From NCBI GenBank assembly GCA_000004985.1, contig GG738891.1: a stretch of DNA of 64,000 nucleotides, one strand, 5' to 3'. The notes below the pieces were generated by a model, which saw only the letters and a program-made list of their open reading frames with translations, was not told the DNA's origin and made no database searches. Origin of the DNA: Naegleria gruberi. Its lineage: Eukaryota. This document shows positions 22,087 through 64,000 of the stretch, in pieces. Position numbers and translations under genes: made by a program. Each line of letters opens with the position of its first letter. Positions within the stretch are counted from its first letter, which is position 1.

Positions 22087-22137
22087 NNNNNNNNNNNNNN
22101 NNNNNNNNNNNNNNNNNNNNNNNNNNNNNNNNNNNNN

Positions 22138-33924: not shown

Positions 33925-34087
33925 TGCCAACATTCCTCTTGGTGGTCGCCTCTCTCGTTTTCACAGCGGATGGCAANNNNNNNNNNNNNNNNNNNNNNNN
34001 NNNNNNNNNNNNNNNNNNNNNNNNNNAATATTACTTTTATATTTTTGTGATACTAGTAACTATATATCTACTATTACACTTAATAGT

Positions 34088-38244: not shown

Positions 38245-38256
38245 CCAACCAATAAG

Positions 38257-38922: not shown

Positions 38923-39339
38923 TTTCCAGACATGATGTTAAGCTTGATAGTCAAGCTTGTGAAATTTGTATTTTTTTTTTTAAAATTTTCAAAAAAATTC
39001 ACAAGTCTGAAATACGTCACCTCCTCCTTCACTGATTTTCATCATCAAAACAACACAAAACAAACAACAACAAATAAACAACACATTACAACATCAAGTA
39101 GAACACAACAGAATATCGATAATTAACTTTGGAGTAACTTTATGCAAAATCGTCAGCGATGACGTCAAAAAAAGCGTCAATCCACCATCAGGAATGACGA
39201 AATAAAATGAGCGGGTTAATTGGTGAAAAATTAAAGAGCAGAAAAAAATTTAAACGTTTATTAATCGTATGAACCCGACGGGTTCGTCTTGATGATATTA
39301 CGAATATTAAATAATAAATTCTTTCTTGTTGGGATTGCT

Positions 39340-48300: not shown

Positions 48301-51300
48301 AGACAGATACTTGGAATTTATAGATCTGGTAACCAAATGTTTCTAAAGAGACGTAGAGGTCAGAGTATTTATCCATACTGTATCTGATTTTTGGTCCACT
48401 CAATTGAGTCCATTCAATGATTGAATTTTCTGATTTGCATGAAGATTCTGACACTATTTTCTTGATGGTAATAGGAAATTGAGTAGTTACTTTTTCAATA
48501 GTTGTTTGTGGAACATATAATGCTGGAAGAGGGCTTTCTGCTTTTGAAAATATGGAAGAATATACAGTTGAGCTATTTACAATATTTCCCACCACAAGAG
48601 AAACTAAATATTTTCCTTGTGGAAGGGTTGAATCTAGCTTAATTAATGGAGTATTGGGGAAATTGAATGGAATAATTTGGAACACATGGTCTGTCTCATT
48701 GAACAAGGTCCAGTAATAGTCAAGTGGTGTATTATTTGGAGATATACTGAGCGAGCCATCAATGATAATCTCATCACAGGAGCTATAGAATTCTGAGAGT
48801 AGATTTATGGATGCTGTTGGAGCGATAACTTTTTCATTTTCACACCAAATGCCATAATATCCATTCTCACATTGGCATTGATTGTAATCTATGCATACAC
48901 CTCTTCCAGAACAAACATTAGAATCATTCGAAAGTAGAGAATCACATCGTGTCAACTCACAATTCACACCAACATGATTACTGGTGCATGTACAATTATC
49001 AAAGCTTGAACAATTACCACGATTTGAACACACCAAAGGATTGGTATTATTCAGACCGAAACAAGAGTATTGTTCACAACTTTCACCGAAATAGCCGTCA
49101 GAGCATTGGCAAGTATCCAAATCAATGCAATTACCCTTTCCAGAGCAAACAGTTTCTTTTTCACTTGATGAAATGTTGAAACATGTGGTCAACTCACAAT
49201 TAGCTCCATGATACTTTTCTCCACATGTACAATTATTGTAGGATGAGCAAAATCCTCTACCAGAACAAACCTTTGAATCGGCATGCTCTGTTCCATTACA
49301 ATCAAAATAATTACATAGATCTCCATAAGTTCCTAATTGACAAGAGCACTTATTCACATCAATACATTGGCCATTTCCAGAACACACTGTCGAGTTGTCT
49401 TTTTCAATACCAAAGCATGAAAATTCTTTACATTCCACACCAGTATATCCTGAACGACATTTACAATCATCAAAATCAACACATTCACCTCTTCCTGAAC
49501 AAACATTTTGAGTTTCATTGCTCAAAACACCAAAACAACTTGTCACTGAACAATCTAATCCGAAATAATGTGATACACATTCGCACTCATCTGTTTCAGT
49601 ACAACTTCCGTGCCCAGAGCAAACTCTGGAATCAGTTCTATTCATTCCATAACAAGAATAATATTGGCAGTTGTCTCCGTAATATCCTTCAGAACAATTG
49701 CATTGATTGAATCGATAGCAATTTCCTTTTCCAGAGCAAACTTGAGGATTTGATGAAGATACATTGAAACACACATAAGATTCACATTCTTCTCCATGAT
49801 ATCCATGCTCACATGAGCAATTATTAGGAGAAACGCATTGACCATGACCTGAACAAGCCAATGGTTCTGAATGTTGCACATTAAAACATGAGAAATTGTC
49901 ACATTCCTTTCCATAGTAACCAGATACACATGTGCAATTATCAAAATCAACACATTCACCTCTTCCAGAACAAACACTTGAAGAATTGGAAAGTTTGGAG
50001 AAGCAAGTAGTGATGGAACAGTTCAAATCCATATAGTTCTCATCACATTGGCATTGATCCAAGCTGGAACAAGTTCCTCTTCCAGAACAAACATTGGAAT
50101 CTGAAGAATTGAATCCAAAACATGTGTAAAGTTCACAAAATTCACCAAAATATCCATATTCACATTGGCAATTATTAAATGTTTCACATGAACCATGCTT
50201 GGAACAAACTGAGCTATTGGAAGATGAAATTCCATCACAAGTAGTTTCTTGACAGAATGAACCAAAGTAATGTTCTACACATTCGCATGTGTCATGTTGC
50301 TTGCATTCACCACGTCCATTACAAACTCTTGAATCATTACTTAATAATCCCTCACAGGATGTCACTTGACATTTATCACCCCACCAATTGTTTGAGCAGT
50401 GACATGTATCGGGTCCAACACATATTCCATTTCCAGAACATGATATGTTTAAAGTTTTCGATTCATTAAAACATGAAAATTCGTCACAATTTGATCCAAA
50501 ATAATCAATTTCACATTGACATAAATTAAAATCAATGCATTGACCATGTGAGGAACAAACTAGATTGGTTTGATTCGATGGGATGGAAGCACAGGTGGTG
50601 AGTTGACATTCTTCTCCGAAATAGTTTGGTAGACAAAAGCATTCGTCAAGTTTCGAACAATTTCCTCTTCCAGAACAAACACTTTTGGTTTCAGTATGAT
50701 TAATTCCAAAGCAAGCATAATTTTCACAATCCATGCCTGAATAACCATTCTCACATTCGCAAATTTCAGATTTTAAGCATTTTCCGTGTTTGGAACAAAC
50801 TGAACTATTTAAATGCTCAATTCCATTACAATAAAATTCTTCACAATTTGATCCAAAATAACCAGTATTACAAGTGCAATTGTTAAAATCATTACAGTTA
50901 CCATTTTTGGTACAAACAGTCGAGTCATTTGACATTATTCCAAAACAAGAGGTTACGTCACATGCCAATCCAAAGTAATTTTCTTGACATTCACAATTTC
51001 CAAAATCTGAACAATTTCCTCTTCCTGAACAAACTAACACATCATTTTGAGTAATATTGTTACATGTGTAATATTGACATTCATCACCAAAATATCCAAA
51101 TTTACAAGAACAAGTATTGTAATCAATACATTTTCCTTTTCCAGAACAAGCTCGTGAACTGGAAGATATTTCAGCACCACAACTTGTCAATTGACAATAA
51201 TCTCCAAAATAGTGAGCTTGACATTTACAATTATTGTAAGAAGTACAATTTCCTTTTTGGGAACAAACAACAGAAGAATTGGTATTGTTAATGCCATTAC

Positions 51301-54300
51301 AAGTATAATATTGGCATTCTTCTCCGAAATATCCATCATTACAACGACATGAATTGTAATCAATACATTGGCCGTTAGAGGAACAAGCAGTTTCGTTTTG
51401 GTTGGAATATTCGAAACATTCGAATATCTCACAATTGAAGCCCCTGTAATTAAGCGAGCAGTTACATTGATTGTAATCAATGCAATTACCCTTTGATGAG
51501 CAGACTGTTGAATTTAGAGATGATACTGAGCTACATGTGGTCAACTCACAATTTTTTCCAAAATAATTTTCTTCACAAGTACAATTATCGAAACTTGAGC
51601 ATTTTCCTCGAGAAGAGCAAACTTTAAAATCGACATTTGATATTCCATGACATGAAAAATATTGACATTCGTCTCCAGAATATTCATCATTTTCACAAGC
51701 GCAATTATTAAAGGAAGTACATTTGCCGAAACCAGAACAAACTGAAGAGTTATAAGATTCAATTCCATTACAAGTGGTAATTTCACAACTCAATCCAAAA
51801 TAATTCATTTCACATTGACAGGTGTCAAAATCAACACAAGCTCCATAACCAGTACAAACCAAACTGTCATTACTCAATATTCCATTACAACTTGTCACTT
51901 GACACATTGATCCAAACATATTTTCCTTACATTCACAAGTATTTACATCAAGACATTTGCCACGACCAGAACATGACAAGTTGGAGAATTTGGAAATTTC
52001 AAAACAATTGAAATTTTCACATGAATCTCCATAATAATCAGCTGTGCAATTACAAGTATTGTAATCTATACATGTTCCCTTTGATGAGCAAACAGAACTT
52101 TCATTGGATTGAATATTATTACAAGTGGTCAATTCGCAATTATTTCCAAAATAGGAATCAATACAGGTGCAATTATCAAAACTCGAACATTTTCCTTTTG
52201 AAGAACAAACAGATTCCAAAGTATTGTTCACATTGAAACAAGTATAAAATTGACAATCATTTCCAAAGTATCCTTCGTCACATTCGCAATTCTCAAAACT
52301 TTTACAATGACCTCTTGATGAGCAAACTGAGGAATTGTAATGTTCAATGCCATTACAGTTAAATAATTCACAATTGGTTCCATAATATCCTTCATTGCAT
52401 TCGCAGAAATCAAAATCTGTGCAATTTCCTTTTCCAGAACAAACATTAGTTTCGTTTGAAAGTGTTGAATTACAACTGGTCAATTGACATTCATCTCCTA
52501 AATAATTAAGGAAACATGAACAATTATTTGTTGAATAGCATTCTCCACGTGAATGACAAACAGATGAGTTGATATTCAAAATGTCAAAACATTTGAATTC
52601 AGAACAATCAGAACCAAATGAATTTTCAAAACATTGACAGGTGTCAAATTGTGAACAAACTCCATTTCCAGAACATGTCAAATCTGTTACATTGGATGGA
52701 ACTCCAAAACATACAGTAACTTGGCAGAATTGACCAAAATAATTTTCAGTGCAATTACAACTATCTGTTTCAATACAATTACCACGTCCTGAACAAACAA
52801 TTGATTCATTACTCAATGTTCCATTACATTTGTATAATGAACAGTCAGCTCCGTAAGCATCTGGTTGACATTGACAGGAATTCACATCAGAACATTTGCC
52901 TCTGCCAGAACAAACTAATTGTGATTGATTTGAAGGAATGGAAAAACAATCAGTCACTTGACAATAATCTCCATAATATCCATCTCTGCATGAACATTGA
53001 TTTGGTGATAGACATTCTCCTCTTCCAGAACAAGTAATTGTTTCATTACTAAAAATGGAATTACATATTGTAACTGAACAATTCAGTCCAAAGTAATTAA
53101 AATCACATTCACACAAATCTGTTTCTGAACAAATACCATGTCCAGAACAAACCAAAGATTCACTATTATTCAAACCAAAGCAAGTGTGGAATTGACAATT
53201 CTCTCCATAATATCCCTCAGAACAATTACAATGATTGTAAGAAGAACAATCACCTTTTCCAGAACAAACACTGTTATTGGTCATATCAAGTCCAAAACAA
53301 GATGTTCTCTCACAAAATTCACCATAGTATCCATCCGTACAATTACAAATATCTTTTGCAACACAATTTCCATTGGAATTACAAACACTTGTCAAATTAC
53401 CAAAAGTTCCATTACATTTGGATATGGAACAATCCTCACCAAATGCATCTGGAAGACAAATACATGAATCTATATCTGAACAATTGCCTCTTCCTGAACA
53501 AACTGTAGAGTCCAAGTTGAGTGTGCCAAGACATGAGAATTGAGAACAAGTTATTCCTGAATAACCTGGTTTACAAGTACAATTATTGAAAGAAGAACAT
53601 AAACCGTGAGAGGAGCATACTTGAGTGAAATTGGAAACAATATTTTCACAAGTCGTGAGCTGGCAGAATGGACCAAAATAATTTGCCGTGCAATTACAGA
53701 TATCTGGATTAATACACGAGCCACTTCCGCTACAAACAAGGGAATCATTACTTGGAATACCATTGCACAATGTAAATTCACAATTTGTTCCATAAATTTG
53801 AGAATTATTGCAATGACAATTGTTAACATCTGAACAAACGCCCCTTGAGGAACAAACTGATGAGGAATTTCTGTTAAATCCAAAGCAATCATATTCTTGA
53901 CAGTCAGATCCATAGTATCCTTCCTCACATTCACAATTATTGTATTGAGTACAATTACCGCGACCTGAACAAACAATTGTGGAATTTGAAACGATATTTG
54001 AACACGTTGTGAACTGACACCATTCACCAAAGTAATGTTTGGAACAGTTGCAAACTTTGAAATCGGTACAAATACCATTCTTTGAACAGACTAATGAATC
54101 ATTTGCAGTAATATTGTTACAATATGGAATTTCACAATTCAATCCAGTATAACCATATTTGGAATCACAATTACAATTATTATATGAATCACAACTTCCA
54201 TGTCTACTACAAACACGTTGATCATTAGATCCAAAACCATAACATGTTGTAAAATCACAAAAAGTTCCAGCATAATTCAAGTCACATTCACAAACGTCCA

Positions 54301-57300
54301 TGTCAACACATTTTCCAAAATTATTACAAACAAGAGATGAGTTTGAAGAGATCGAATCACAAGTAGTAAATTCACAATTCGATCCAAAATATCCTTCTCT
54401 ACATTCACATCTATTGTACTCTGAACAGATTCCTCGGCCACTACATACAGACCTATTATTCGAATCCACTCGGTCACAAGTTGTAAGTTCACACCAATCA
54501 CCGAAATAATTCTGAGAGCAGTTACAATAATTTGGACCATAGCAAGTACCCCTGGAATTACAAACTCTTGAATCATTGCTCATCGTTCCATTACAATATG
54601 TCAATTCGCATTCTAATCCAAAACTAAACTCATTACACTCACACTTATTGTAATCAACACATTTGCCATTTTTTGAACAAGTTTCATTGGAATTAAAAAC
54701 TCCAAAACATGAAAATTCGCTGCAATTAAACCCAAAGTATCCATAACTGCATTCACAGGTATCGTATGCAGTACATTTACCCTTTCCATTACAAACTTGA
54801 GAATGTTGTGAATCAACTCCATAACAACTGGTCAACTCACAAAAGGAGCCCCAATAGTACGGTTCTATACAAGAGCACACATCAGGATTAGAACAGTTGC
54901 CTCTACCAACATCAGTACACTTTCCAATTAGTCCATTACATATTGGAATATCACAATCTGAGCCACCATAACCTAAAGTCTCATTACATGTGCAATTATT
55001 GAAATTTTCACACAATCCTCTCAAATTACAAACCAATGGTGAAGTGTTTTCAATGAGATTACATGTTGTAAATTGACACCACTCTCCATAATGACCCTCT
55101 TCACATGAACAAACATCGGTTTTTGTGCATTTTCCATGACCATTACAAACAAGAGTTTCATTTCCCAAAGTGCCATTACAATACAATACTGAACAATCAA
55201 CTCCAAAAGTGTCTGGTCTACAAGAGCAGGTATTGAAATCTGTACAATTTCCATTTCCAGAACAAACAGTTGGAGAGTTTGGAAGCAAATCAAAACATGT
55301 GAATAAATTGCAGTCCTCTCTGACATATGGTTGTAAAGGGTCAAAGGTTGATGGTTGACTGAATTTTGCTTGTTTCAAAATTAAATAACCACCTTCTGTA
55401 CAGGTTGACCAAATAGCTCCTTGAATATTATCTGAAACTATGAAATCGTGTCCATATCTTGCAATTACAGTTCCATGAACATTTCCAGAAAAGGTATTTC
55501 CATGAATTGCTGGATTGTAAACCCAATTTGCATTTCCAGAGCTGAAATAATAAGTCAACCAAAAAACATTTCTATAGGTAGCACATTTCAGATAGGTAAA
55601 ATCGGCGCCAAAATAGTGTACGAAAGGAAGCTTAAAGACCACTGGTTCAATTCCTACAATTGTAAACTTTTGGCCATTGATTGTCCATCCATTTTCCATG
55701 CAATAGACACCTCCTCTGTTGATGATAATGTTTCTACCCATGTCAGTGTCTGGATTTTTTATCATGTAATCACAAGGAAGGGCCAGAAGCTCCTGCATCT
55801 TATTAGAAACTTGTTGAACTAATTCTAAACCGTAATTTTCTGAACTGTTTGTAACTATAGCACTTCCATTGGCAACATAGGGATAAACTGGATCTGGATA
55901 AACATAATTTGGAGGATTAATGACGAATGAAGGTATTGCAATACTAGCAGAAAGTGGCGCGTTATCCAAACTATTCTTAACTAAAACTATTGGAATGTTG
56001 GAGATTAATTTATAACCAGCAAATATATCATTTTCGCACAAGGTTCCAGAAAAGCCAGCACTACAAGTACATTGATCAAATGCATAGCAACGTCCTCTTC
56101 CAGAACAAACTGAACTATTCGTATTTTCAATGCCGAAACATGAAGTAAATTGGCAGAAAGTTCCATAATAATTTTGAGAACAGGAGCAATTATTTGGAGC
56201 AAAACAAGCACCTCTTCCAGGTGCAGTACAAATTCCTACCAAATTATTACAAATAGGAATATCACAATTAGGTCCGCCAAATCCCATTTCTGTCCTACAT
56301 GTACAATTATCGAAATAGTCACAAATTCCACTACTGTTACAAACAAGAGGTGAATATTTGGAAACTCCTGCACATGTTGTAAACTCACAAAAAGTTCCAT
56401 TGTGTCCAAAGTCACATTGACATGTATCCTTGGCCACACATCGTCCGTGTCCACTACAAACATTTGAAACATTACTAAGAATTCCATTACAAAAGGAAAG
56501 TGAGCATTGAGGACCATAACTATCTGAATTACATATACAGGTGTCAAAATCTACACATTTACCCCTTCCAGAACATGTCATATTTGAAGTTGACACAATG
56601 CCATAACAATTCACACGAGAACAGAAAGTTCCATCATAATACGAATCTTGTGGATTAAATGTTATAGGTGCTGACAGTTTTACATCTTTAAAATTGAGAT
56701 TTCCTTTAGAATTTGGTGAATGAATCATCAAAGATCCTTGTATGTCACCTGTAACTGTCAAATCAGCATTGCTATTTGCGATCATTGTTCCTTGAACAGT
56801 TCCAGAAATAGTTAAATTAGAGTTTGCATCAGTGGATAGGAAGAGTAAATTTCTATAAGTTGCGCACTCAAGATATGAAACCTTGGATCCAATATAATTA
56901 AAATACGGAGCTTTAAAGACAACTTGTTCAGTACCTATTATGGTTAAAGACATTTTGTTAATTGTCCATCCTTGCTTCAAGCAATAAACCATTCCACCTC
57001 TAATAGTGATGCTAGTAGTCAATTCCAAGTCTGGATTAGTAACATTAACTGTACATGGTAATGCTATTAATTCAGTTACTTTTTTTGTTAATTCTTGAGA
57101 AAGAATTTGTCCGCTAGATGTTGTAGTATTCTTAATGACTGCATCTCCATTCGAAACATATTGGAATTGATACTTTTCTGTAACCATTAGTGGAATTGCA
57201 ATACTGGCCAATAGATATGAATTGGATCTTGAGTTTTTTACCAAATTTAGTTTCTTATTGGTGATGAGTTTGTATCCAGCAAAAAGATCATTTTGACAGT

Positions 57301-60300
57301 TAGTGCCAGAGAAACCTGCTCTACAAGAGCATGTATTGTAATCTGTACAATAACCATGTCCACTACAAACCATCGAATCATTGGAAATAAGCCCAAAACA
57401 AGTAGTCAACTCACAATTCACACCCAAATATCGTGAAGATGAGCATGTACAAGTATTAGCATTCGAACAAGTTCCTCTTCTCGAACAAACATTAGGATTT
57501 GAAGCATTCAAACCGAAACACATGGAAACATTGCACCAAGTTCCAGTAAATTTCGAATAATCAGCGCAAGTGCAATTATTGAAAGGCCAACAAGTTCCAT
57601 GCCCACCACAAACTAATGAAGAATTTGAAGATGAAATGGAAGCACAAGTTGTTTGATTGCAATTTGGTCCAAAATAATTGGATTTACAGGAACAAGTGTC
57701 AGTTGCCAAACAACTTCCCAATCCATTGCAAGTTTGTGTGGAATTACTCCAAATGCCAAAGCATTTCTGAATGGAACAATTCGTTCCATAATATCCATCG
57801 TAACATTTACATGTGTCAATAGCAGAACAAACACCTTTTCCACTACAAACATTTGTTGAATTTTTGAGAATTCCAAAACATTTGTAAATTTCACAATTAC
57901 TTCCAGAATATCCTGTCTTACAAGTACAATTGTTGTAATCAATGCATTTACCAAATCCTGAACAAGTTAGTGAATTATTTGATTCAATTCCACCACAAGT
58001 TGTCAAATCACAGAATTGACCATGATAACGTTGTGAACAGTTACAAACATCTGGATAGATACATGAACCATGAGTATTACAAACTGATGAAAGAGAAGCC
58101 TTTGTTCTATTGCAAATAGGAATTTCACAATCTAATCCAGTATAACCAAACTCTGAACTGCAATTACAATTATTGTAAACTTGACAAGAACCTCTTTCTC
58201 TACAAGCCAAGGAAGAATTTGATGAAACACCATTACATGTGGTTAGCTCACAGAATTTTCCGTAATAATGAGCATTACACTCACAAATGTCTTTGGCAGA
58301 ACAAATTCCTCTACCAGAACAAACAGTTGATATGTTACTGAAAATTCCATCACATTTAGATATGGAACAATCACTTCCATAGGCATCCTCTGAGCATACA
58401 CAAGTGTTATAATCTATGCATTGTCCTCTTCCATGACATGTACTATTTAAATTTGAAGAAACATTATAGCAAGAAGTGTAATTACAAAAATCTCCGATAT
58501 ACTTTTCATGAGTATCAAAAGTTAATGGTACAGCAAGAGAAACTTCATGTAAAATTGAGGTAGAGCTTCCTGTTACCCATAATTGACCATCAAACGGTCC
58601 TATTACCGTCATTGATCCAGAATAATTGGGAATGTACGTTCCAAGAATTGGTGGTAAATAATTTGTCAACTTGTTTCCTCCTTCAATCACAGTGGAACCA
58701 CCAATTATCCAGAAAAAGTTTCTATGGGATGCACATTCCAGTAGCAATATGTTTGCATTAGTAATTGTAAGAGACTGAACTTTGAAAATCACTAGTTCAG
58801 TACCAATAATTACAATTCTTTGGGACGAGTTGATTGTCCAAGTGAAATCAAAACAAAATACCCCAGATTTTCTAACAACAAGTTCTTTAGGTATTTGTGA
58901 TGAGCTGGTAAATCGTTGAGTGCAGGCCATTGCTATCAAGCTAGTTCTTTTTCTCTTCATTTTTTGAATAATCACATTTGACAGCGAGATAGAACTTTTA
59001 GTCATGGTTGCCTTTCCCTTGGATTTTAAAGTAATTCCGGTACTACTCATAGAACCATAAATAATACTTGATCCAAAGTACCTAGTTAAGCTGTTTACAA
59101 CTGGCTGATAATAGTTGTTCGAATATTCAATTTCGAATACACCTGGAGTATCAGAAATGAGACCATACCCAGCAAACATATCATACATGAATCTTTCACA
59201 ATAGATTCCATCATATTCGTCCTGACAAGAGCATGTTTCGTACAAATTACAAGCTCCATGTCCATTACAAACAAACGAATCATTCGAAGCAGTTTGGTTA
59301 CAAGTTGTCAGTTGACACCAATCACCATAATAATGATCATTACATAAACAGCTATTAGGGGATGTACACTTTCCGTGTGAGCTACAAACATTCGAATTAT
59401 CGCTATAAGTTCCATTACAAATTGTAATCTGACAATTCAATCCAAAATAATTTGGAATACAGGAACAAGTATTTGGGGCCATGCATGAACCTTTAGAAGA
59501 ACAAGTTGAATTCAACAAGCTAGATACTCCATTGCAATCATACTTATTACAAATTGTATCGTAATAACCTGATTTACATGTACAAGTTTCGAATGCAGTA
59601 CAAGTACCATGTGAGGAACAAACGGCCGTGTTATTCGATTCAGTTCCATTACAAGTAGTTACCTCACAATTAACACCATAGTAATGTTCTTTGCAGTGAC
59701 ATGTATTTGGTTCTGTGCAGTTACCTCTACCTGAGCAGACTTTCGAATCAGTGGCAGGTTTAGAATAACAAACAGGGATTTGACATTCAGATCCAGTATA
59801 TCCCTTTAGAGGATTACAAACACAAGTATTATAAGGCCAACAAGTACCCCTTTCATTACAAACGGTGGTGTTTGTGGAATTAATTCCAAAACATGTTGTA
59901 AATTGACATTTGAAGCTTTCGTAATTTGGTTTACAGACACAGGTGTCAGTATCTACACATGTGCCTTCTCCGCTACAAACATGTGATACATCATTACTTA
60001 AATACCCATAACACTTGGAAATTGAGCAATCATTTCCATAATATCCATCTCTACATTTACAATTATTGTAATCTAAACATTCACCTCTTCCAGAGCAAGT
60101 TGTGTTTGAATTTCTATTGATTCCATAACAATTAAATTCTTGACAATTATTTCCGTAATAGTTCGTCTTACAATCGCACTTTTCAAAGGCAGAACAAGAA
60201 CCATGAGATGAACAAACAGTTGAATTTGTTGAATTAATTTCTGAACATGTTGTCACTTGACATAGATCACCAAAGTAATGATCTGAACAATTACATACAG

Positions 60301-63300
60301 AAGGAGAGATGCAAGAACCATGTGCACTGCATACTGCACTACCAGTTGCCAAAATTCCTTTACAAATAGGAACTTGGCAATAGCTTCCTCCATATCCATA
60401 ATTGGAATTACAAGAACAGTTTTCATATTTGATGCATTGTCCTCTTCCACTGCAAACATCTGAAGAATTGCTGGAAATACCTCCACAAGTAGTCAATTCA
60501 CAGAAAGTTCCATAATAATTAGCATTACAAGAACAAGTATCTGGTCCTACACATTTTCCTCGAGTGGAGCAAACTGAAGATGTATTGCTATATGTGGAGT
60601 TACATAAGAACAAGGAGCAATCTAATCCAAAAGCACCTTCTAGACACTTGCATGTATCAATATCGACACAAACACCCTTTCCTGAACAAGTTGTATTTGA
60701 GTTGGATTTTTCATTGTAACATGTTGTAAAGTTACAAAAATCTCCAACTATTTGATCATAAGGATCAAATGTTATAGGAGCTGTAAACTTCACATTACTT
60801 AATTCTATCATCCCTAAATTCCAAATCTGACCTTCAACAAGACCACTAATTGGCAAATAGTCAACCGATGAAACAAGAGTTCCATACAGAGGACCCACAA
60901 CACGTGAAGTGAAATTCACAGACTTTCCTATGAACCAATAAACATTTCTAAATGACGAACATTCTAAATGAATCATTGAAACATTCTTATAATCAATACT
61001 TGGTGCTTTGAATACAATTGTCTCTGTACCAATTATTGTAATCTTTGTAGAAGAAACTGTTAAAGTTGAATTAAAGCAATAGACTCCTCCCTTTCTAATT
61101 ACCATAGAATTTGCAAAGAATGATAGAGAATTTGATATGTAATAGTTGCATCTCAATAGATTTAACTCTTGAACTTTTTCTTTCATTTGTCGAAGCAATT
61201 CTATACCAATTGGTTGACTTGTATTTGTAATGATAGCATTTCCATTAGAAATGTATTCGTATTGACCTTGAGAAACATTCATTGATGGTATAGCTATACT
61301 TGCCATCAAAGGGGAATTAGTTTGCAAGTTGATTTTTACATTGATTTTCGACTCACTGATTAATTTGTATCCAGCAAAGTAATCATGAATGAAAAGTTCA
61401 CAATTTGAACCATTATAACGAGTTACACATTCACAGATATCATAATCTAGACATTTTCCGTTTCCAGAACAAGCTAATGAAGAATTAGAAACCTCGCCAA
61501 AACATGTTGTCATTTCACACAAACTTCCCAAATAATTGCTATCACATGAACAGAGATCTGTAGAAGTACATGATCCGTGAGAGCTACATACAGAAGAAAC
61601 GTTGCTAAATACCCCGTTACATGTAGTTACTTCACAAGTATTTCCATAGAAATTTGTATTGCATTCACAAGTGTCTATATCAATACAATTTCCATTTTTG
61701 GAGCAAGATAAACCAGAGGCCATTCCTATTCCAAAGCAATCATATTCCTGACAAATCTTACCATAATAACCTTCCATGCATGAACAATTGTTAAAATCTG
61801 TGCATTCACCATGTCCAGAGCAAACCAAAGAATCATTTGAACTGATTCCATCGCATGTGGTCAACTCACATAAATTTCCAAAGTATGTGTCACTGCAATT
61901 ACAATAATCCAGCAATACACAATTTCCTCTATGGTTACACACCGTTTCATTGGTAGATATTATACCTTTGCAATATGTAAGTTCACATGAAAATCCCTCA
62001 AACCCTTCAAAACAAGTACAATTCTCAGCCATCGCACAAATTCCATTTCCATTACAAACAGTTGTGTCATTTGACAATACTCCACCACACAAGGTTTCAG
62101 AGCATGTCTCACCAAAATAGTTCAATTCGCAAAGGCAACTGTTTGTACTATGGCAAGAACCTCTTCCAGAGCAAACAGAACTGTCATTACTCGAAATACC
62201 ATTACAATAGGAAATTTCACACATCGCTCCCTCATATCCTTCTTCACATTGACAAGAATCAATATCTAAGCATTGACCCCTTCCAGAACAAACTTTACTA
62301 TTGTTCAAAGATAAACCGAAACAATTAAAAATTTCACATTCTTGTCCATAGTATCCTTGGGCACATTCACAATAATTGAAAGAAGAACAACTTCCTCTCA
62401 TGGAACAAACTGATGTAGAGTTGGATTCTAATCCAAAACACGTGGTTGATTGACAGAATTCTCCATAATAATTATCTGTACAATTGCAAATATTAACATC
62501 AATACATTGACCTCTTTCTGGTTGAGTGCAATAACCAACCAATCCATTGCACGTTGGAATATCACAATTGGATCCTCCATAAAGAAATGATGCATCACAA
62601 GAGCAATTATTAAATTTCTCACATGAACCTCTTTGATTACAGGCATTTGGTGATAAATTTGAAATACCATCACAAGTTCTGAATTGACACCAAGTACCAT
62701 TATTTCCATATTCACAAAGACAAGTATCTGTAGAGATACATTGACCATTTCCACTGCATGCATTCGATTCATTTCCAAGTACTCCATTACATTTGGAAAT
62801 AGAACAATCGTGTCCATAACTTTCTGAAGGACACAAGCATGCGTCCAAGCCAACACATAATCCCCTTCCTCCACAAACGCTCGCCTCACTCGATAACACT
62901 CCAAAACAATAGGTACTTAAGCATTGTGCAGTAATATAGGTATCATATGGATTGAAAGTTATTGGCGGACTAAACACGAGATCAAAAACAATCAATTGAG
63001 TTCCTCCGACATACCAGATTGCTCCTTGGACATTGTGGTAAACCTCCAAGCTGTAATAAGGAGAGGCTCCTATCACTGTACCATGAATTGTTCCTGTGAA
63101 AAAGTTGCCATTCAATCCTCTATCAAATGTCAACCAGAAAAAGTTTCTGTAAGAGGCACATTCCAAGTAATAGAAAGTGGCTCCATAGTAGTAGACAAAA
63201 GGAGTTTTGATTACAACAGGTTCTGTACCAATCACTACAAAAGTATAAGATGAATCTATGGCCAATCCATTTGGAAAACAATACACTCCTCCATGTTTGA

Positions 63301-64000
63301 AAATTGCACTCTTATTAGATCCAAAAAATGGTTCCTGATTGGAAAAGGTAAAATCACATGGTTTCTCAATAATTTCTTGAGCTCTTTTTTCCATGGCTTG
63401 AACAATTTGATCACCTAAAGGGTTTGTATCGTGTGTGTAAGAAATTGATGCGTAAACTTCGTCATCTGCCAAAACAAATGGTTCTGGAGGTGTTGATACA
63501 TAGGCTGTCGATAAAATCATTGATGGAAGAGCAATACTTGCAGAAAGAATGTTATTTGGAGCAGAGTTTCTTCCAATTACAACAGGTCTTGTACTAATGA
63601 GCTTGTAACCTGCTAAAATATCAACTTCACACAAATTCCCTTCAAATCCAGAAGGACATTCACATGTTTGATAGTCTGAGCATTTACCAACTCCTGAACA
63701 AGTAAACCTTGAATTGGATACAACCCCTCCACAAGATGTTAATTCACACAATTCACCAAAATAATTATTAGAGATGCACGAGCATTGATTAGGGCCAATG
63801 CACGAACCTCTCGAATTACAAGCAGTACTATTGGTATTCTCTACCTCTCCACATTTGAAAAGCTCACATTCTTCTCCATAAGCACCAGTGGAGCAGAGAC
63901 AAGTATCTAACTGTGTGCAATTTCCTCTTGAAGAACAAACATTGCTCATATTGGAGAGTTTATCAAAACAGGTGCTAATTTCACATTCCATACCAGAATA
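45326..64000 (-). CDS. Giant (more than 6,221 aa, N-terminus beyond the window) intronless extracellular-repeat protein: about 150 tenascin/laminin-type EGF-like repeats, five copies of an unknown ~330-aa module, a REJ/PKD-like region and GPS-like motif, one TM, and a Cys-rich basic juxtamembrane segment plus acidic cytoplasmic tail
   Basis: There is a single 18,666-nt ORF from 45326 to 63991, still open at the window edge. The repeat unit is C.G.G.C….C.C…(Y/F).G..C(E/Q) of ~31 aa, iterated with frequent NxS/T sites. The module is 'AGYKLIS…IAIPSM…KGGVYCF…TI.GTEPVVFKAP…LECA(S/T)YRN.FW…'. Near the C-terminus are REJ-like (…EVWEWTC…) and GPS-like (…NPNCIVTIINSTMATCKCSVTFNMTNL…) sequences, then the TM LIGIIIAVVVGAMVLCCSVTIGCYAYYCF, then CCLAIPCLQFCCCCWWCCYCCGKSS…HRNRRRRA, then an acidic/Asn-rich tail ending …DLRLVFE*. 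Confidence 0.7.
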   Translation of the reverse strand, partial: YSGMECEISTCFDKLSNMSNVCSSRGNCTQLDTCLCSTGAYGEECELFKCGEVENTNSTACNSRGSCIGPNQCSCISNNYFGELCELTSCGGVVSNSRFTCSGVGKCSDYQTCECPSGFEGNLCEVDILAGYKLISTRPVVIGRNSAPNNILSASIALPSMILSTAYVSTPPEPFVLADDEVYASISYTHDTNPLGDQIVQAMEKRAQEIIEKPCDFTFSNQEPFFGSNKSAIFKHGGVYCFPNGLAIDSSYTFVVIGTEPVVIKTPFVYYYGATFYYLECASYRNFFWLTFDRGLNGNFFTGTIHGTVIGASPYYSLEVYHNVQGAIWYVGGTQLIVFDLVFSPPITFNPYDTYITAQCLSTYCFGVLSSEASVCGGRGLCVGLDACLCPSESYGHDCSISKCNGVLGNESNACSGNGQCISTDTCLCEYGNNGTWCQFRTCDGISNLSPNACNQRGSCEKFNNCSCDASFLYGGSNCDIPTCNGLVGYCTQPERGQCIDVNICNCTDNYYGEFCQSTTCFGLESNSTSVCSMRGSCSSFNYCECAQGYYGQECEIFNCFGLSLNNSKVCSGRGQCLDIDSCQCEEGYEGAMCEISYCNGISSNDSSVCSGRGSCHSTNSCLCELNYFGETCSETLCGGVLSNDTTVCNGNGICAMAENCTCFEGFEGFSCELTYCKGIISTNETVCNHRGNCVLLDYCNCSDTYFGNLCELTTCDGISSNDSLVCSGHGECTDFNNCSCMEGYYGKICQEYDCFGIGMASGLSCSKNGNCIDIDTCECNTNFYGNTCEVTTCNGVFSNVSSVCSSHGSCTSTDLCSCDSNYLGSLCEMTTCFGEVSNSSLACSGNGKCLDYDICECVTRYNGSNCELFIHDYFAGYKLISESKINVKINLQTNSPLMASIAIPSMNVSQGQYEYISNGNAIITNTSQPIGIELLRQMKEKVQELNLLRCNYYISNSLSFFANSMVIRKGGVYCFNSTLTVSSTKITIIGTETIVFKAPSIDYKNVSMIHLECSSFRNVYWFIGKSVNFTSRVVGPLYGTLVSSVDYLPISGLVEGQIWNLGMIELSNVKFTAPITFDPYDQIVGDFCNFTTCYNEKSNSNTTCSGKGVCVDIDTCKCLEGAFGLDCSLFLCNSTYSNTSSVCSTRGKCVGPDTCSCNANYYGTFCELTTCGGISSNSSDVCSGRGQCIKYENCSCNSNYGYGGSYCQVPICKGILATGSAVCSAHGSCISPSVCNCSDHYFGDLCQVTTCSEINSTNSTVCSSHGSCSAFEKCDCKTNYYGNNCQEFNCYGINRNSNTTCSGRGECLDYNNCKCRDGYYGNDCSISKCYGYLSNDVSHVCSGEGTCVDTDTCVCKPNYESFKCQFTTCFGINSTNTTVCNERGTCWPYNTCVCNPLKGYTGSECQIPVCYSKPATDSKVCSGRGNCTEPNTCHCKEHYYGVNCEVTTCNGTESNNTAVCSSHGTCTAFETCTCKSGYYDTICNKYDCNGVSSLLNSTCSSKGSCMAPNTCSCIPNYFGLNCQITICNGTYSDNSNVCSSHGKCTSPNSCLCNDHYYGDWCQLTTCNQTASNDSFVCNGHGACNLYETCSCQDEYDGIYCERFMYDMFAGYGLISDTPGVFEIEYSNNYYQPVVNSLTRYFGSSIIYGSMSSTGITLKSKGKATMTKSSISLSNVIIQKMKRKRTSLIAMACTQRFTSSSQIPKELVVRKSGVFCFDFTWTINSSQRIVIIGTELVIFKVQSLTITNANILLLECASHRNFFWIIGGSTVIEGGNKLTNYLPPILGTYIPNYSGSMTVIGPFDGQLWVTGSSTSILHEVSLAVPLTFDTHEKYIGDFCNYTSCYNVSSNLNSTCHGRGQCIDYNTCVCSEDAYGSDCSISKCDGIFSNISTVCSGRGICSAKDICECNAHYYGKFCELTTCNGVSSNSSLACRERGSCQVYNNCNCSSEFGYTGLDCEIPICNRTKASLSSVCNTHGSCIYPDVCNCSQRYHGQFCDLTTCGGIESNNSLTCSGFGKCIDYNNCTCKTGYSGSNCEIYKCFGILKNSTNVCSGKGVCSAIDTCKCYDGYYGTNCSIQKCFGIWSNSTQTCNGLGSCLATDTCSCKSNYFGPNCNQTTCASISSSNSSLVCGGHGTCWPFNNCTCADYSKFTGTWCNVSMCFGLNASNPNVCSRRGTCSNANTCTCSSSRYLGVNCELTTCFGLISNDSMVCSGHGYCTDYNTCSCRAGFSGTNCQNDLFAGYKLITNKKLNLVKNSRSNSYLLASIAIPLMVTEKYQFQYVSNGDAVIKNTTTSSGQILSQELTKKVTELIALPCTVNVTNPDLELTTSITIRGGMVYCLKQGWTINKMSLTIIGTEQVVFKAPYFNYIGSKVSYLECATYRNLLFLSTDANSNLTISGTVQGTMIANSNADLTVTGDIQGSLMIHSPNSKGNLNFKDVKLSAPITFNPQDSYYDGTFCSRVNCYGIVSTSNMTCSGRGKCVDFDTCICNSDSYGPQCSLSFCNGILSNVSNVCSGHGRCVAKDTCQCDFGHNGTFCEFTTCAGVSKYSPLVCNSSGICDYFDNCTCRTEMGFGGPNCDIPICNNLVGICTAPGRGACFAPNNCSCSQNYYGTFCQFTSCFGIENTNSSVCSGRGRCYAFDQCTCSAGFSGTLCENDIFAGYKLISNIPIVLVKNSLDNAPLSASIAIPSFVINPPNYVYPDPVYPYVANGSAIVTNSSENYGLELVQQVSNKMQELLALPCDYMIKNPDTDMGRNIIINRGGVYCMENGWTINGQKFTIVGIEPVVFKLPFVHYFGADFTYLKCATYRNVFWLTYYFSSGNANWVYNPAIHGNTFSGNVHGTVIARYGHDFIVSDNIQGAIWSTCTEGGYLILKQAKFSQPSTFDPLQPYVREDCNLFTCFDLLPNSPTVCSGNGNCTDFNTCSCRPDTFGVDCSVLYCNGTLGNETLVCNGHGKCTKTDVCSCEEGHYGEWCQFTTCNLIENTSPLVCNLRGLCENFNNCTCNETLGYGGSDCDIPICNGLIGKCTDVGRGNCSNPDVCSCIEPYYWGSFCELTSCYGVDSQHSQVCNGKGKCTAYDTCECSYGYFGFNCSEFSCFGVFNSNETCSKNGKCVDYNKCECNEFSFGLECELTYCNGTMSNDSRVCNSRGTCYGPNYCNCSQNYFGDWCELTTCDRVDSNNRSVCSGRGICSEYNRCECREGYFGSNCEFTTCDSISSNSSLVCNNFGKCVDMDVCECDLNYAGTFCDFTTCYGFGSNDQRVCSRHGSCDSYNNCNCDSKYGYTGLNCEIPYCNNITANDSLVCSKNGICTDFKVCNCSKHYFGEWCQFTTCSNIVSNSTIVCSGRGNCTQYNNCECEEGYYGSDCQEYDCFGFNRNSSSVCSSRGVCSDVNNCHCNNSQIYGTNCEFTLCNGIPSNDSLVCSGSGSCINPDICNCTANYFGPFCQLTTCENIVSNFTQVCSSHGLCSSFNNCTCKPGYSGITCSQFSCLGTLNLDSTVCSGRGNCSDIDSCICLPDAFGEDCSISKCNGTFGNLTSVCNSNGNCVAKDICNCTDGYYGEFCERTSCFGLDMTNNSVCSGKGDCSSYNHCNCSEGYYGENCQFHTCFGLNNSESLVCSGHGICSETDLCECDFNYFGLNCSVTICNSIFSNETITCSGRGECLSPNQCSCRDGYYGDYCQVTDCFSIPSNQSQLVCSGRGKCSDVNSCQCQPDAYGADCSLYKCNGTLSNESIVCSGRGNCIETDSCNCTENYFGQFCQVTVCFGVPSNVTDLTCSGNGVCSQFDTCQCFENSFGSDCSEFKCFDILNINSSVCHSRGECYSTNNCSCFLNYLGDECQLTSCNSTLSNETNVCSGKGNCTDFDFCECNEGYYGTNCELFNCNGIEHYNSSVCSSRGHCKSFENCECDEGYFGNDCQFYTCFNVNNTLESVCSSKGKCSSFDNCTCIDSYFGNNCELTTCNNIQSNESSVCSSKGTCIDYNTCNCTADYYGDSCENFNCFEISKFSNLSCSGRGKCLDVNTCECKENMFGSMCQVTSCNGILSNDSLVCTGYGACVDFDTCQCEMNYFGLSCEITTCNGIESYNSSVCSGFGKCTSFNNCACENDEYSGDECQYFSCHGISNVDFKVCSSRGKCSSFDNCTCEENYFGKNCELTTCSSVSSLNSTVCSSKGNCIDYNQCNCSLNYRGFNCEIFECFEYSNQNETACSSNGQCIDYNSCRCNDGYFGEECQYYTCNGINNTNSSVVCSQKGNCTSYNNCKCQAHYFGDYCQLTSCGAEISSSSRACSGKGKCIDYNTCSCKFGYFGDECQYYTCNNITQNDVLVCSGRGNCSDFGNCECQENYFGLACDVTSCFGIMSNDSTVCTKNGNCNDFNNCTCNTGYFGSNCEEFYCNGIEHLNSSVCSKHGKCLKSEICECENGYSGMDCENYACFGINHTETKSVCSGRGNCSKLDECFCLPNYFGEECQLTTCASIPSNQTNLVCSSHGQCIDFNLCQCEIDYFGSNCDEFSCFNESKTLNISCSGNGICVGPDTCHCSNNWWGDKCQVTSCEGLLSNDSRVCNGRGECKQHDTCECVEHYFGSFCQETTCDGISSSNSSVCSKHGSCETFNNCQCEYGYFGEFCELYTCFGFNSSDSNVCSGRGTCSSLDQCQCDENYMDLNCSITTCFSKLSNSSSVCSGRGECVDFDNCTCVSGYYGKECDNFSCFNVQHSEPLACSGHGQCVSPNNCSCEHGYHGEECESYVCFNVSSSNPQVCSGKGNCYRFNQCNCSEGYYGDNCQYYSCYGMNRTDSRVCSGHGSCTETDECECVSHYFGLDCSVTSCFGVLSNETQNVCSGRGECVDFDDCKCRSGYTGVECKEFSCFGIEKDNSTVCSGNGQCIDVNKCSCQLGTYGDLCNYFDCNGTEHADSKVCSGRGFCSSYNNCTCGEKYHGANCELTTCFNISSSEKETVCSGKGNCIDLDTCQCSDGYFGESCEQYSCFGLNNTNPLVCSNRGNCSSFDNCTCTSNHVGVNCELTRCDSLLSNDSNVCSGRGVCIDYNQCQCENGYYGIWCENEKVIAPTASINLLSEFYSSCDEIIIDGSLSISPNNTPLDYYWTLFNETDHVFQIIPFNFPNTPLIKLDSTLPQGKYLVSLVVGNIVNSSTVYSSIFSKAESPLPALYVPQTTIEKVTTQFPITIKKIVSESSCKSENSIIEWTQLSGPKIRYSMDKYSDLYVSLETFGYQIYKFQVSVYYPSNPNIKDVSVVTLITKPPDLYLNLITFDAQPNYTIINVDYTDPEMVYNAYSTEVWEWTCLDNNVNELLLEFLSVLSSEKSTNFKIDAALFPVPPLSLELDLKVTKSDGRSIHKSTTIHFTYIPPIINIINVYPKKEYFLVSDTLTLQTSLIPGTSLITNYTVIVNNVIVGSTSSDYINIDPSLLNAGSNNIITLSAYDPNANVASLIQYSFSVASPPPMCYCTITPLNGFAVETEFEFICMNCKSEEDHLDYRYGFIDDRSGVKIYMHNIDVGYSKQLPTAFIGETVTCFFEVINTATQASTIESMNVSIQTRSYSTFSQVQVLAQQWIKQAKEESLLGSLYQSAAISRTSTALLNRAITKIEPISIYENTRSLTRSLTCKNGGILKKDTCMCREGFVGVACENTIKDFAEYQNKNLQLLRMLANGTEIMMDNQLISIAAFTVDSILYNFKHLDTNTVSEALSQLVKYLVKVIADESLKLPVGVDFCLDSVIDSAFQFILEKRFFTKQASNAQQLFTTLKFTSHLEARSQPKTRTKVFKKAAFYRRVMELVWLYDYSNHQLLIEPSTLTSVKVQLNNTIKATHSSKPFLQAFLVVDDIFSIGDYLASKVETLSEKVRRKSSLQSKIIAFGFGDLDVALLKSSSIIDLEFHIPLLENTTTTQDDSNLGQLFFKEVNTSYSCASISISTLSIEDNPNCIVTIINSTMATCKCSVTFNMTNLVSSTLNLFIVQKKIYIDDQSMLIGIIIAVVVGAMVLCCSVTIGCYAYYCFYGELCCLAIPCLQFCCCCWWCCYCCGKSSILRHHRNRRRRALSMTTAIDVDVESDNGDDEKPHLHIEPFNPHPHPVVPIINLNNTINNTSTTTIIYNEDHPIVEGETIYLPPTPRETPSTRGEEDTHSNHSNNITISHDNDDGDDHNSEGAVTVVRGGKGVGRGGGDDDDGNSTTNSRHSFISVLSNFSSESVRKLFRKKKKEEEIPSAVQIDLRLVFE

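What the first reader, a model, noticed from the sequence alone, without database searches (positions are those of the whole stretch)
55330..63620. Five copies of an undescribed ~330-aa module interspersed among the EGF repeats of the giant protein
At nt ~55330-56000, 56600-57300, 58470-59230, 60720-61420 and 62930-63620 (minus strand) the EGF array is interrupted by a recurring non-Cys-rich module. Its landmarks are (F)AGYKLIS…IAIPSM…(K/R)GGVYCF…W(T/I)IN…ltI(I/V)GTEPVVFKAP…yLECA(S/T)YRN(F/L)FW…, followed by G/T-rich beta-strand-like segments. Each copy begins right after an EGF repeat ending …CE.D(I/L)(F/L). I cannot assign it to a known family. It may be a beta-helix, lectin or adhesion module specific to this lineage.
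Basis: seen in the sequence. Interest (0 to 1): 0.5.

Follow-up and report, generated by a model that had tools for sequence, protein, structure and literature searches.

The report
Divergent ice-binding-like domains in Naegleria EGF giant
The five recurring non-cysteine-rich modules are real, but they are highly diverged copies of the known "ice-binding-like" (DUF3494) beta-solenoid domain, set at fixed intervals along the EGF stalk of a giant Naegleria gruberi surface protein. They are probably surface-binding heads rather than a new fold.

Summary
**Observation.** It is confirmed. The minus-strand ORF 45326-63991 (6221 codons, running off the window end) has exactly five copies of a module between EGF repeats. 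Copies are 215-238 aa (not ~330) and 27-43% identical.

**Identity.** The module is not an unknown family.
- A profile of the copies, searched against 1.84 billion proteins, found only EGF/REJ paralogues and bona fide Pfam PF11999 (Ice_binding/DUF3494) proteins.
- hhalign against canonical DUF3494 domains gave 97.4% probability, E 1.2e-11.
- The modules fall below Pfam's threshold: 1 of 11 hit, at 21.7 bits against a cut-off of 28.7. They are a divergent subfamily that routine annotation misses.

**Organism.** The window is Naegleria gruberi (Heterolobosea), not Amoebozoa.

**Paralogue.** NAEGRDRAFT_51207 has the same five modules with identical EGF spacing (3-13-13-10-5).

**Function (inferred).** The modules are most likely multivalent surface or glycan-binding heads on a REJ-domain membrane receptor. 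Antifreeze activity is unlikely.

**Verdict.** This is a new member of a known kind, of modest interest.

The parts
45326..63991 (-). Giant ORF of 6221 codons plus stop. The N-terminus lies beyond the window edge at 64000. From the N-terminus it has about 99 EGF repeats with five DUF3494-like modules, then a REJ domain, one TM helix, a Cys-rich juxtamembrane cluster and a cytoplasmic tail of about 220 aa.
   Evidence: no stop upstream of the first ATG. (EGF CxC counts and TM position). (EGF and REJ Pfam hits).
62924..63619 (-). Module 1 (aa 125-356), a divergent DUF3494/ice-binding-like beta-solenoid domain
   Evidence: profile hits. AF2 models. Fold searches.
60737..61381 (-). Module 2 (aa 871-1085)
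58487..59179 (-). Module 3 (aa 1605-1835). This is the only copy with a direct, sub-threshold Pfam PF11999 hit (E 1.7e-4, 21.7 bits).
56627..57286 (-). Module 4 (aa 2236-2455)
55313..56026 (-). Module 5 (aa 2656-2893)
48812..55312 (-). Membrane-proximal run of about 55 EGF repeats (teneurin-like EGF_2 type, about 39-40 aa each). A further 3, 13, 13, 10 and 5 EGF repeats lie before and between the modules, within 56027-63991.
   Evidence: CxC counts. (PF07974, PF23106 and PF25024 hits).
47339..48367 (-). REJ domain (Pfam PF02010, 60.3 bits against a cut-off of 25), aa ~5209-5551
45986..46075 (-). Predicted transmembrane helix (MLIGIIIAVVVGAMVLCCSVTIGCYAYYCF, aa 5973-6002). It is followed by the Cys-rich stretch CCLAIPCLQFCCCCWWCCYCCGK and a basic stop-transfer RHHRNRRRR.
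   Evidence: read from the sequence; no TM predictor was run

Best explanation
**What is shown.** Each of the five modules is a highly diverged DUF3494 (Pfam PF11999, 'ice-binding-like', IBP-1 fold) domain. That fold is a discontinuous right-handed triangular beta-solenoid braced by one long alpha-helix.

The order of elements in the module is:
- N-terminal coils (FAGYKLIS...).
- A helix of about 19 residues ending in ...ALPC.
- The family's core motifs in the canonical order: GVYC, a G-x-x-x-V-F-K coil, an (A/S)-x-R-N-V-F-W coil, a G-T-x-I coil and a G-x-x-W coil.

The modules sit in the distal half of a giant type-I membrane protein of Naegleria gruberi. They are separated by fixed numbers of EGF repeats (3-M1-13-M2-13-M3-10-M4-5-M5). 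After them come about 55 EGF repeats, a REJ domain, one TM helix and a cytoplasmic tail.

**What is inferred (mechanism).** The EGF array acts as a long, disulfide-stiffened stalk. It displays five rigid beta-solenoid heads at defined spacing. Each head uses a flat solenoid face to bind an ordered, repetitive hydrated surface. Candidates are polysaccharide or glycoprotein on prey bacteria, the substratum, other cells or the cyst wall. Five heads would give multivalent avidity. Engagement would be relayed through the REJ/TM region.

This resembles bacterial DUF3494 adhesins, which combine the domain with Ig-like repeats. True antifreeze or ice adhesion is considered less likely in this mesophilic amoeba.
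For: **Homology (shown).**
- A profile of the five copies was searched against 1.84 billion representatives and gave 13 hits at E<=1e-3.
- Five hits are EGF/REJ relatives carrying the same module: P0001-P0004 and P0009.
- The other eight are all bona fide PF11999 proteins, with Pfam scores of 44-232 bits against a cut-off of 28.7.
- Single-domain matches fall inside the Pfam-defined region. P0006 matches at 513-660 against Pfam 503-668 (iE 7.7e-6). P0012 matches at 111-254 against 88-252. P0008 matches at 183-291 against 101-313.
- hhalign of 11 modules against 6 canonical PF11999 domains gave probability 97.4%, E 1.2e-11, over 133 columns. It aligns helix-ALPC/CT, GVYC, FK and NVFW.
- Pfam hits module 3 directly at E 1.7e-4.
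- The only PDB sequence hits are ice-binding protein 7bwx/7bwy.

**Fold (on predicted models).**
- The AF2 model built with 11 sequences has pLDDT 86.4 and pTM 0.86. It has N-terminal strands, a helix at 67-85, then about 15 short strands.
- In Foldseek the top 30 hits were all DUF3494 ice-binding proteins at probability 1.00. The next hits had E>=0.5.

**Architecture.**
- REJ is at 60 bits, and the EGF families are detected.
- The TM helix and Cys-rich tail are read from the sequence.
- The paralogue NAEGRDRAFT_51207 is 46% identical. It keeps five modules with identical EGF counts of 3/13/13/10/5, while the proximal EGF run differs (55 against 22). This argues for constraint on head spacing.

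**Function.**
[quoted passage not shown] They are proposed to bind substrates other than ice (PMC7783341 discussion; PMC11645318 introduction).
- Bacterial hits pair the domain with Ig-like repeats. 6bg8 is the DUF3494 domain of an 'Ig domain protein, group 2'.
- The window is from N. gruberi, a temperate free-living amoeba (own knowledge).
Against: **Family membership.**
- No module reaches Pfam's gathering score. Only 1 of 11 is detected at all.
- Sequence identity to solved IBPs is 9-15%.
- Foldseek TM-scores are only 0.46-0.61.
- The structure is predicted, not solved.

**Function.**
- The functional part is inference.
- Module composition differs strongly from canonical domains. Modules are 13.5% aromatic, 14.1% charged and 29.6% small residues. 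Canonical domains are 6.4%, 6.4% and 48.4%. The binding chemistry may therefore differ from anything described for the family.
- The modules could be structural only.
Confidence: 0.9

Rival explanations
1. The modules are genuine ice-binding domains. The giant protein would be an ice adhesin or ice-recrystallisation inhibitor that protects or anchors the amoeba during freezing.
For: All structurally closest proteins are experimentally characterised ice binders. Tandem or multiple DUF3494 domains are common among environmental IBPs (PMC9957290). Soil and freshwater amoebae can experience frost (own knowledge).
Against: N. gruberi is a mesophile and the strain is a laboratory isolate (own knowledge). 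DUF3494 domains are widespread in warm habitats with no ice function (PMC7783341, PMC11645318). The modules are twice as rich in aromatic and charged residues as canonical domains and much poorer in the small residues (Thr/Ser/Ala/Gly) that dominate them. A membrane-anchored protein with about 100 EGF repeats and a REJ domain looks like a receptor or adhesin, not a secreted antifreeze.
Confidence: 0.07
2. The modules have no ligand. They would be rigid structural inserts, such as joints, spacers or oligomerisation nodes, that shape the EGF stalk.
For: The best-conserved positions are the core motifs of the fold, not obviously a surface patch. The positional spacing is conserved between paralogues.
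Against: The fold is otherwise used for surface binding. Five copies kept at 27-43% identity, with modules 1 and 5 conserved at 53-57% between paralogues, suggests selection beyond bulk structure. EGF repeats alone already make a stalk.
Confidence: 0.2
3. The modules are a pectate-lyase-like or polysaccharide-lyase/hydrolase beta-helix with enzymatic activity on glycans.
Confidence: 0.03
4. One reading: a new, lineage-specific domain family with no relation to known families.
For: Pfam and NCBIfam give no above-threshold hit. The close subfamily is found only in N. gruberi and two metagenome fragments.
Against: Profile, profile-profile and fold evidence all converge on PF11999.
Confidence: 0.02

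Closest known systems
DUF3494 / IBP-1 'ice-binding-like' domain (Pfam PF11999). Solved examples include IBPv 5uyt, AnpIBP 7bwx, ColAFP 3wp9, SfIBP_1 6bg8, FfIBP 4nu2, TisAFP 3vn3 and LeIBP 3uyu.
   Different: All modules score below Pfam's gathering threshold. Identity to solved IBPs is 9-15%. The modules are far richer in aromatic and charged residues and poorer in Thr/Ser/Ala/Gly. They have subfamily-specific invariant residues (E133, R158 and a third Cys, C154). They are embedded inside an EGF array of a eukaryotic membrane protein, rather than being a secreted single- or double-domain protein. Ice binding is untested and unlikely.
Bacterial DUF3494 adhesin-type proteins with tandem Ig-like domains. 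The example is Shewanella frigidimarina SfIBP_1 (6bg8), proposed as an ice adhesin by Vance et al. 2018, cited in PMC7783341. Hits P0008, P0010 and P0013 here are of this type.
   Same: DUF3494 head(s) are combined with long runs of small repeat domains that act as extenders on a cell-surface protein.
   Different: The extender is EGF rather than Big/Ig-like. There are five heads, interspersed rather than terminal. The protein is a eukaryotic type-I membrane protein with REJ and TM regions rather than a bacterial surface anchor.
N. gruberi paralogues: NAEGRDRAFT_51207 (XP_002674088, 4968 aa), 76139, 75960, 61915 and P0017, all annotated as 'predicted protein'
   Same: They have the same EGF + module (+ REJ) architecture. 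NAEGRDRAFT_51207 has five modules at matching positions with identical EGF counts of 3/13/13/10/5.
   Different: Identity to the window ORF is 46% or less. The other paralogues have fewer modules (1-3). NAEGRDRAFT_51207 has a shorter proximal EGF run (22 against 55). The window's own gene is not in the protein collection searched.
REJ-domain receptors (sea-urchin receptor for egg jelly, polycystin-1 family; Pfam PF02010)
   Same: There is a REJ domain just outside the membrane, following a long modular ectodomain.
   Different: There is a single TM helix rather than 11. No GPS, PLAT or channel-associated domains were detected. Pfam reported no GPS hit at E<=0.01.

Membership tests
DUF3494 / Ice_binding (Pfam PF11999) | Sequence scores at or above the Pfam gathering threshold (28.7 bits) | tested here: not met
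   Only module 3 hits, at 21.7 bits and E 1.7e-4. The other 10 of 11 modules give no hit at E<=1.
DUF3494 / Ice_binding (Pfam PF11999) | Statistically significant homology to family members by profile methods | tested here: met
   The module profile retrieves eight bona fide PF11999 proteins at whole-library E 1.9e-6 to 9.7e-4, and nothing from any other family. hhalign against canonical domains gives 97.4% probability and E 1.2e-11.
DUF3494 / Ice_binding (Pfam PF11999) | Discontinuous right-handed triangular beta-solenoid braced by a single long alpha-helix (PMC9957290, PMC11645318) | tested here: met
DUF3494 / Ice_binding (Pfam PF11999) | Conserved core motifs in canonical order (helix...C, PGVYC, x-F-K coil, N-V-F-W coil, G-T-I-x-A coil, G-R coil) | tested here: met
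   These are aligned column by column in hhalign and visible in sequences from the two groups. The final G-R is replaced by G-x-x-W.
Functional ice-binding proteins (antifreeze or ice adhesin) | Ice-binding activity, and a flat, regular, Thr/Ser/Ala-rich ice-binding face | not testable with these tools
Bulk composition argues against it: small residues are 29.6% against 48.4% in canonical domains.
EGF-like repeats (Pfam PF07974 EGF_2 / PF23106 EGF_Teneurin) | Six-Cys repeat scoring above the Pfam threshold | tested here: met
   In the C-terminal segment tested, PF07974 scores 57 bits (cut-off 22.1) and PF23106 scores 54.2 bits (cut-off 24.3). There are about 99 CxC-containing repeats of about 39-40 aa along the ORF.
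REJ domain (Pfam PF02010) | Score above the gathering threshold of 25 bits | tested here: met
   60.3 bits, E 1.7e-16, covering profile positions 40-420 of 452.
Pectate-lyase-like beta-helix superfamily | Best structural and sequence similarity to pectin or pectate lyase-type three-faced beta-helices | tested here: not met

The most novel reading that the evidence does not exclude
The Naegleria modules may be a eukaryotic, non-ice DUF3494 subfamily that has been re-tooled, with aromatic and charged faces, as the ligand-binding heads of a REJ-type surface receptor family. Their spacing along the EGF stalk is conserved (3-13-13-10-5), which could match a periodic ligand such as a bacterial or cyst-wall polysaccharide. 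This would give the first concrete handle on what the many 'warm-habitat' DUF3494 domains bind.
Probability: 0.35. Interest if true: 0.5.

Novelty: new member of a known kind. Interest (0 to 1): 0.3.

Why it matters
**Annotation.** This assigns a fold and family to a block of about 1,150 residues in a giant protein and to at least six N. gruberi paralogues. Those paralogues are all currently labelled 'predicted protein'. It also shows that Pfam's PF11999 model misses this branch. The family's reach in eukaryotes is therefore under-counted.

**Biology.** The function of DUF3494 domains outside icy habitats is an open, if niche, question. A mesophilic amoeba displays five such domains at conserved spacing on a membrane receptor. 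That makes it a tractable system for testing non-ice ligands.

**Limits.** This is not a new fold or a new kind of system.

Tried and rejected
- **Direct Pfam and NCBIfam scans of the five modules.** There were no above-threshold hits. Scattered weak hits (Microvir_J, LD_SV2, Bactofilin, DUF2572, AroM, SV2) were each inconsistent across copies and were rejected as noise.
- **The search for homologous proteins with the 5-copy alignment.** It found nothing at E<=1e-3, although P0001 is in that collection. This is a limit of the word index, not evidence of absence. The exhaustive representative search replaced it.
- **First AF2 model from 5 sequences.** It reached pLDDT 71 with residues 21-66 unresolved. 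It was superseded by the 11-sequence model. Both gave the same fold-search answer.
- **Orthologue idea.** I first took NAEGRDRAFT_51207 to be an orthologue from another species, because identity is only 46%. That was rejected when a neighbouring window ORF proved 100% identical to an N. gruberi protein. It is a paralogue.
- **Exact-sequence look-ups of window ORFs and of P0016.** Nothing was on record, so the scaffold name was not recovered.
- **Low-GC dip at 36-38 kb.** I checked it for a tandem repeat. It is an assembly gap of 935 N.
- **Literature searches.** Queries were DUF3494+EGF, ice-binding-like+EGF, Naegleria+REJ domain and Naegleria+ice-binding. There was no relevant prior description in the held library.
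Full report

The minus strand of the window carries one uninterrupted reading frame from 63991 down to 45326, 6221 codons long. The three codons upstream of its first ATG (Y-S-G) contain no stop and look like the end of another EGF repeat. The protein therefore begins beyond the window edge.

A matching C-terminal landmark, P(I/L/S)TF(D/N), lies about 200-220 residues later in each case.

MAFFT alignment of the five stretches gives 27-43% pairwise identity with 24 invariant columns. A six-frame hmmsearch of the whole window with the module profile finds exactly these five copies and nothing else, at domain E 1e-76 to 1e-92. Their positions are:

| Copy | nt (-) |
|---|---|
| 1 | 62930-63619 |
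| 2 | 60740-61381 |
| 3 | 58490-59179 |
| 4 | 56633-57286 |
| 5 | 55316-56026 |

The modules have 3-4 Cys each and no CxC motif. The surrounding EGF regions are 15% Cys.

The observation and its coordinates are therefore confirmed. The one error is the size. Each copy is 215-238 aa, not about 330 aa.

**2. What is the module?**

*Direct family scans.* These almost fail. In Pfam only module 3 gives a hit. It is to PF11999 (Ice_binding, DUF3494) at E 1.7e-4 and 21.7 bits, below the 28.7-bit cut-off. NCBIfam gives nothing meaningful. A profile of the five copies against all PDB sequences returns only two hits. Both are 'Ice-binding protein isoform1a' (7bwx/7bwy, E 0.11-0.35) and both align over the YLECASYRNFFW / NNVFW coil. 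These are weak, but they point the same way.

*Exhaustive profile search.* The profile was searched with HMMER against 1.84 billion representative proteins. It gave 13 hits at E<=1e-3.
- Five are proteins with the same EGF(+REJ) architecture: P0001-P0004 and P0009.
- The other eight are all bona fide PF11999 proteins, with Pfam scores of 44-232 bits.
- Where a single domain carries the match, it falls inside the Pfam-defined Ice_binding region. P0006 matches at 513-660 against Pfam 503-668, with domain E 7.7e-6 for the whole library. P0012 matches at 111-254 against 88-252. P0008 matches at 183-291 against 101-313.
- No protein of any other family was retrieved.

*Profile-profile comparison.* I aligned 11 modules: five from the window, five from P0001 and one from P0002 (A2). 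I compared them with six canonical PF11999 domains (A3). hhalign gave 97.4% probability and E 1.2e-11 over 133 columns. The alignment places these features in register:
- the end of the long helix with its Cys (…ALPC / …ATCT);
- GGVYC / PGVYC;
- the …VVFK / …YIFK coil;
- ECASYRNVFW / GGA.A.NVFW;
- the G-T-x-I coil;
- the final G-x-x-W / G-R coil.

*Predicted fold.*
- An AlphaFold2 model of module 1 built from only the five window copies had pLDDT 71.
- With the 11-sequence alignment it reached pLDDT 86.4 and pTM 0.86. It shows several N-terminal strands, one 19-residue helix (67-85) and then about 15 short strands.
- That is the published description of DUF3494. [quoted passage not shown] - Foldseek against the PDB put 30 DUF3494 ice-binding proteins in the top 30 places for both models. 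Probability was 1.00 and TM-scores normalised by query length were 0.41-0.61. There was then a cliff to E>=0.5.

*Conclusion on identity.* The module is a divergent DUF3494 domain. It is also clear why it was missed: 10 of 11 modules are invisible to the Pfam model even at E<=1.

**3. Organism and gene family**

The closest proteins are all 'predicted protein [Naegleria gruberi]'. N. gruberi is in Heterolobosea, Discoba. It is not an amoebozoan.

The window itself is from N. gruberi. ORF 2417-4201 is 100% identical, from its Met76 to the stop, to an N. gruberi predicted protein.

The giant ORF is only 46% identical to NAEGRDRAFT_51207 (P0001, 4968 aa). P0001 is therefore a paralogue.

The giant ORF itself does not appear to be in the protein collections searched.
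- There was no self-hit in the representative library.
- Its unique C-terminal 1124 aa find only a 30%-identical paralogue, P0017.

It is probably an unannotated or mis-modelled gene. This is an inference.

The module-bearing family in N. gruberi includes at least:
- the window gene, with 5 modules;
- NAEGRDRAFT_51207, with 5 modules;
- NAEGRDRAFT_75960, with 3 modules;
- NAEGRDRAFT_76139, with 2 modules plus REJ;
- NAEGRDRAFT_61915, with 1 module plus REJ;
- P0017, with 1 module plus REJ.

The same genome also has NAEGRDRAFT_49989. This is a PhoPQ-related domain fused to a Pfam-significant PF11999 domain (44 bits). It is the nearest 'canonical' relative of the modules.

**4. Architecture**

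Counting one CxC per EGF repeat gives the layout below:

3 EGF – M1 – 13 EGF – M2 – 13 EGF – M3 – 10 EGF – M4 – 5 EGF – M5 – 55 EGF

After this come:
- a REJ domain (PF02010, 60 bits);
- a Cys-containing GPS-like stretch with no His-Leu cleavage motif;
- one hydrophobic TM segment (aa 5973-6002);
- a remarkable Cys cluster (CCLAIPCLQFCCCCWWCCYCCGK);
- a basic stop-transfer sequence;
- a low-complexity cytoplasmic tail of about 220 aa.

The paralogue P0001 has exactly the same EGF counts around and between its modules (3/13/13/10/5). Its proximal run is only 22 EGF repeats.

Between the two paralogues, modules 1 and 5 are the best conserved (53% and 57%). Modules 2-4 have drifted to 30-36%.

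Each module has three invariant Cys.
- The first two correspond to the two invariant Cys of the canonical set (C…GVYC). They presumably form a disulfide tying the helix end to the solenoid. This is an inference.
- The third, in LEC, may pair with the extra Cys that precedes the next EGF repeat (…DFC…). This is also an inference.

**5. How it most likely works**

*Shown.* The domain's identity, its fold, the layout of the protein and the conserved spacing are shown.

*Inferred.* The EGF array is a long, disulfide-stiffened and heavily N-glycosylated stalk. There are 176 N-x-S/T sequons in the ectodomain. The stalk holds five rigid beta-solenoid heads away from the membrane. Each head would bind an ordered, repetitive surface through a flat solenoid face. 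Five heads would give avidity. The REJ/TM/Cys-rich region would couple binding to the cell cortex.

The reasoning is as follows.
- The DUF3494 fold is used for binding ice or ice-like water on a flat face.
- Bacterial members pair it with Ig-like extender repeats on surface proteins (6bg8).
- N. gruberi is a mesophilic bacterivore (own knowledge).
- Compared with canonical domains, the modules have twice the aromatic and charged content and far fewer small residues. This fits carbohydrate or protein recognition better than ice.

I put about 0.9 on the domain identity. I put about 0.5-0.6 on the surface- or glycan-binding head function. The rivals are a purely structural role (about 0.2), real ice binding (about 0.07) and glycan-cleaving activity (about 0.03).

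**6. Comparison with the known, and novelty**

*Membership of DUF3494.*
- Homology by profile methods is met.
- The fold is met, on a predicted model.
- The motif order is met.
- The Pfam gathering score is not met.
- Ice-binding activity is not testable here.

I therefore file the module as a divergent member of the DUF3494 superfamily, not as an 'ice-binding protein'.

*Architecture.* DUF3494 heads interspersed in an EGF array with REJ and TM regions were not found in the held literature. Two unnamed Logan-assembly proteins, P0005 and P0007, do combine canonical PF11999 domains with EGF_CA or ephrin-receptor-like Cys-rich repeats. The domain combination is therefore not unique.

*Verdict.* This is a new member of a known kind, with an unreported architecture. 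It is useful for annotation and gives a possible handle on non-ice functions of DUF3494. It is not a new fold or system. Interest is 0.3.

Noticed in passing
window 45326-64000 (-): The 6221+-codon ORF appears to be absent from the public protein collections searched. There was no self-hit in the 1.84-billion representative library. Its unique C-terminal 1124 aa find only a 30%-identical paralogue. The neighbouring ORF 2417-4201 is 100% identical to an annotated N. gruberi protein. The giant gene is probably unannotated or mis-modelled. Its N-terminus lies beyond the window edge.
   Followed up: partly
window ORF aa 1-2893 compared with P0001 (NAEGRDRAFT_51207): The number of EGF repeats before and between the five modules is identical in the two paralogues (3/13/13/10/5), although they are only 46% identical. 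The membrane-proximal EGF run differs (55 against 22). This suggests constraint on head spacing.
   Followed up: yes
window 45986-46075 and downstream to ~45920 (-); aa 5973-6025: The TM helix is followed by an extreme Cys cluster (CCLAIPCLQFCCCCWWCCYCCGK) and RHHRNRRRR. This is a candidate multi-palmitoylation site. Just outside the membrane there is a GPS-like C-x11-C-x-C-S-V-T-F stretch that lacks the His-Leu cleavage motif. Pfam reported no GPS domain.
   Followed up: no
P0006/P0015 (N. gruberi NAEGRDRAFT_49989, 685 aa): This is a fusion of a PhoPQ-activated pathogenicity-related domain (PF10142, 316 bits) with a Pfam-significant Ice_binding domain (44 bits). It is the closest canonical relative of the modules within the same genome, and it could mark the entry point of the domain into Naegleria.
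   Followed up: partly
P0005 (1277 aa) and P0007 (1295 aa), Logan assemblies: These unnamed proteins combine three canonical PF11999 domains with EGF_CA/cEGF or ephrin-receptor-like/TNFR Cys-rich repeats. The DUF3494 + EGF combination therefore also exists outside Naegleria. The source organisms are unknown.
   Followed up: no
window 22087-22137, 30349-30398, 33977-34026, 37310-38244: These are runs of N (51, 50, 50 and 935 bases), that is, assembly gaps. The apparent GC dip at 36-38 kb and the three overlapping 'ORFs' at about 37224-38401 are artefacts of the 935-N gap.
   Followed up: yes
window 36687-36877 and 39015-39199: There are dense clusters of the pentamer TGACG/CGTCA in intergenic DNA. 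Ten copies lie within 190 bp and six more within 185 bp. The whole window has 61 copies, against 43 expected by chance. They could be a repeated regulatory motif or a degenerate repeat.
   Followed up: partly
window 14469-15980 (-), 42272-43870 (+), 401-2188 (-), 30552-31679 (-), 35065-36156 (-): Neighbouring ORFs carry several other domains: five DUF4116 repeats, a RING-like domain plus pentapeptide repeats, Sel1 repeats, a PARP catalytic domain and a VWA domain. There is no obvious functional link to the giant gene.
   Followed up: no
tool behaviour, one search compared: The word-indexed search with the five-module alignment returned nothing at E<=1e-3. Yet P0001 is in that collection and scores 1e-256 with the same alignment in the exhaustive search. 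Negative results from the word-indexed tool in alignment mode should not be read as absence.
   Followed up: yes
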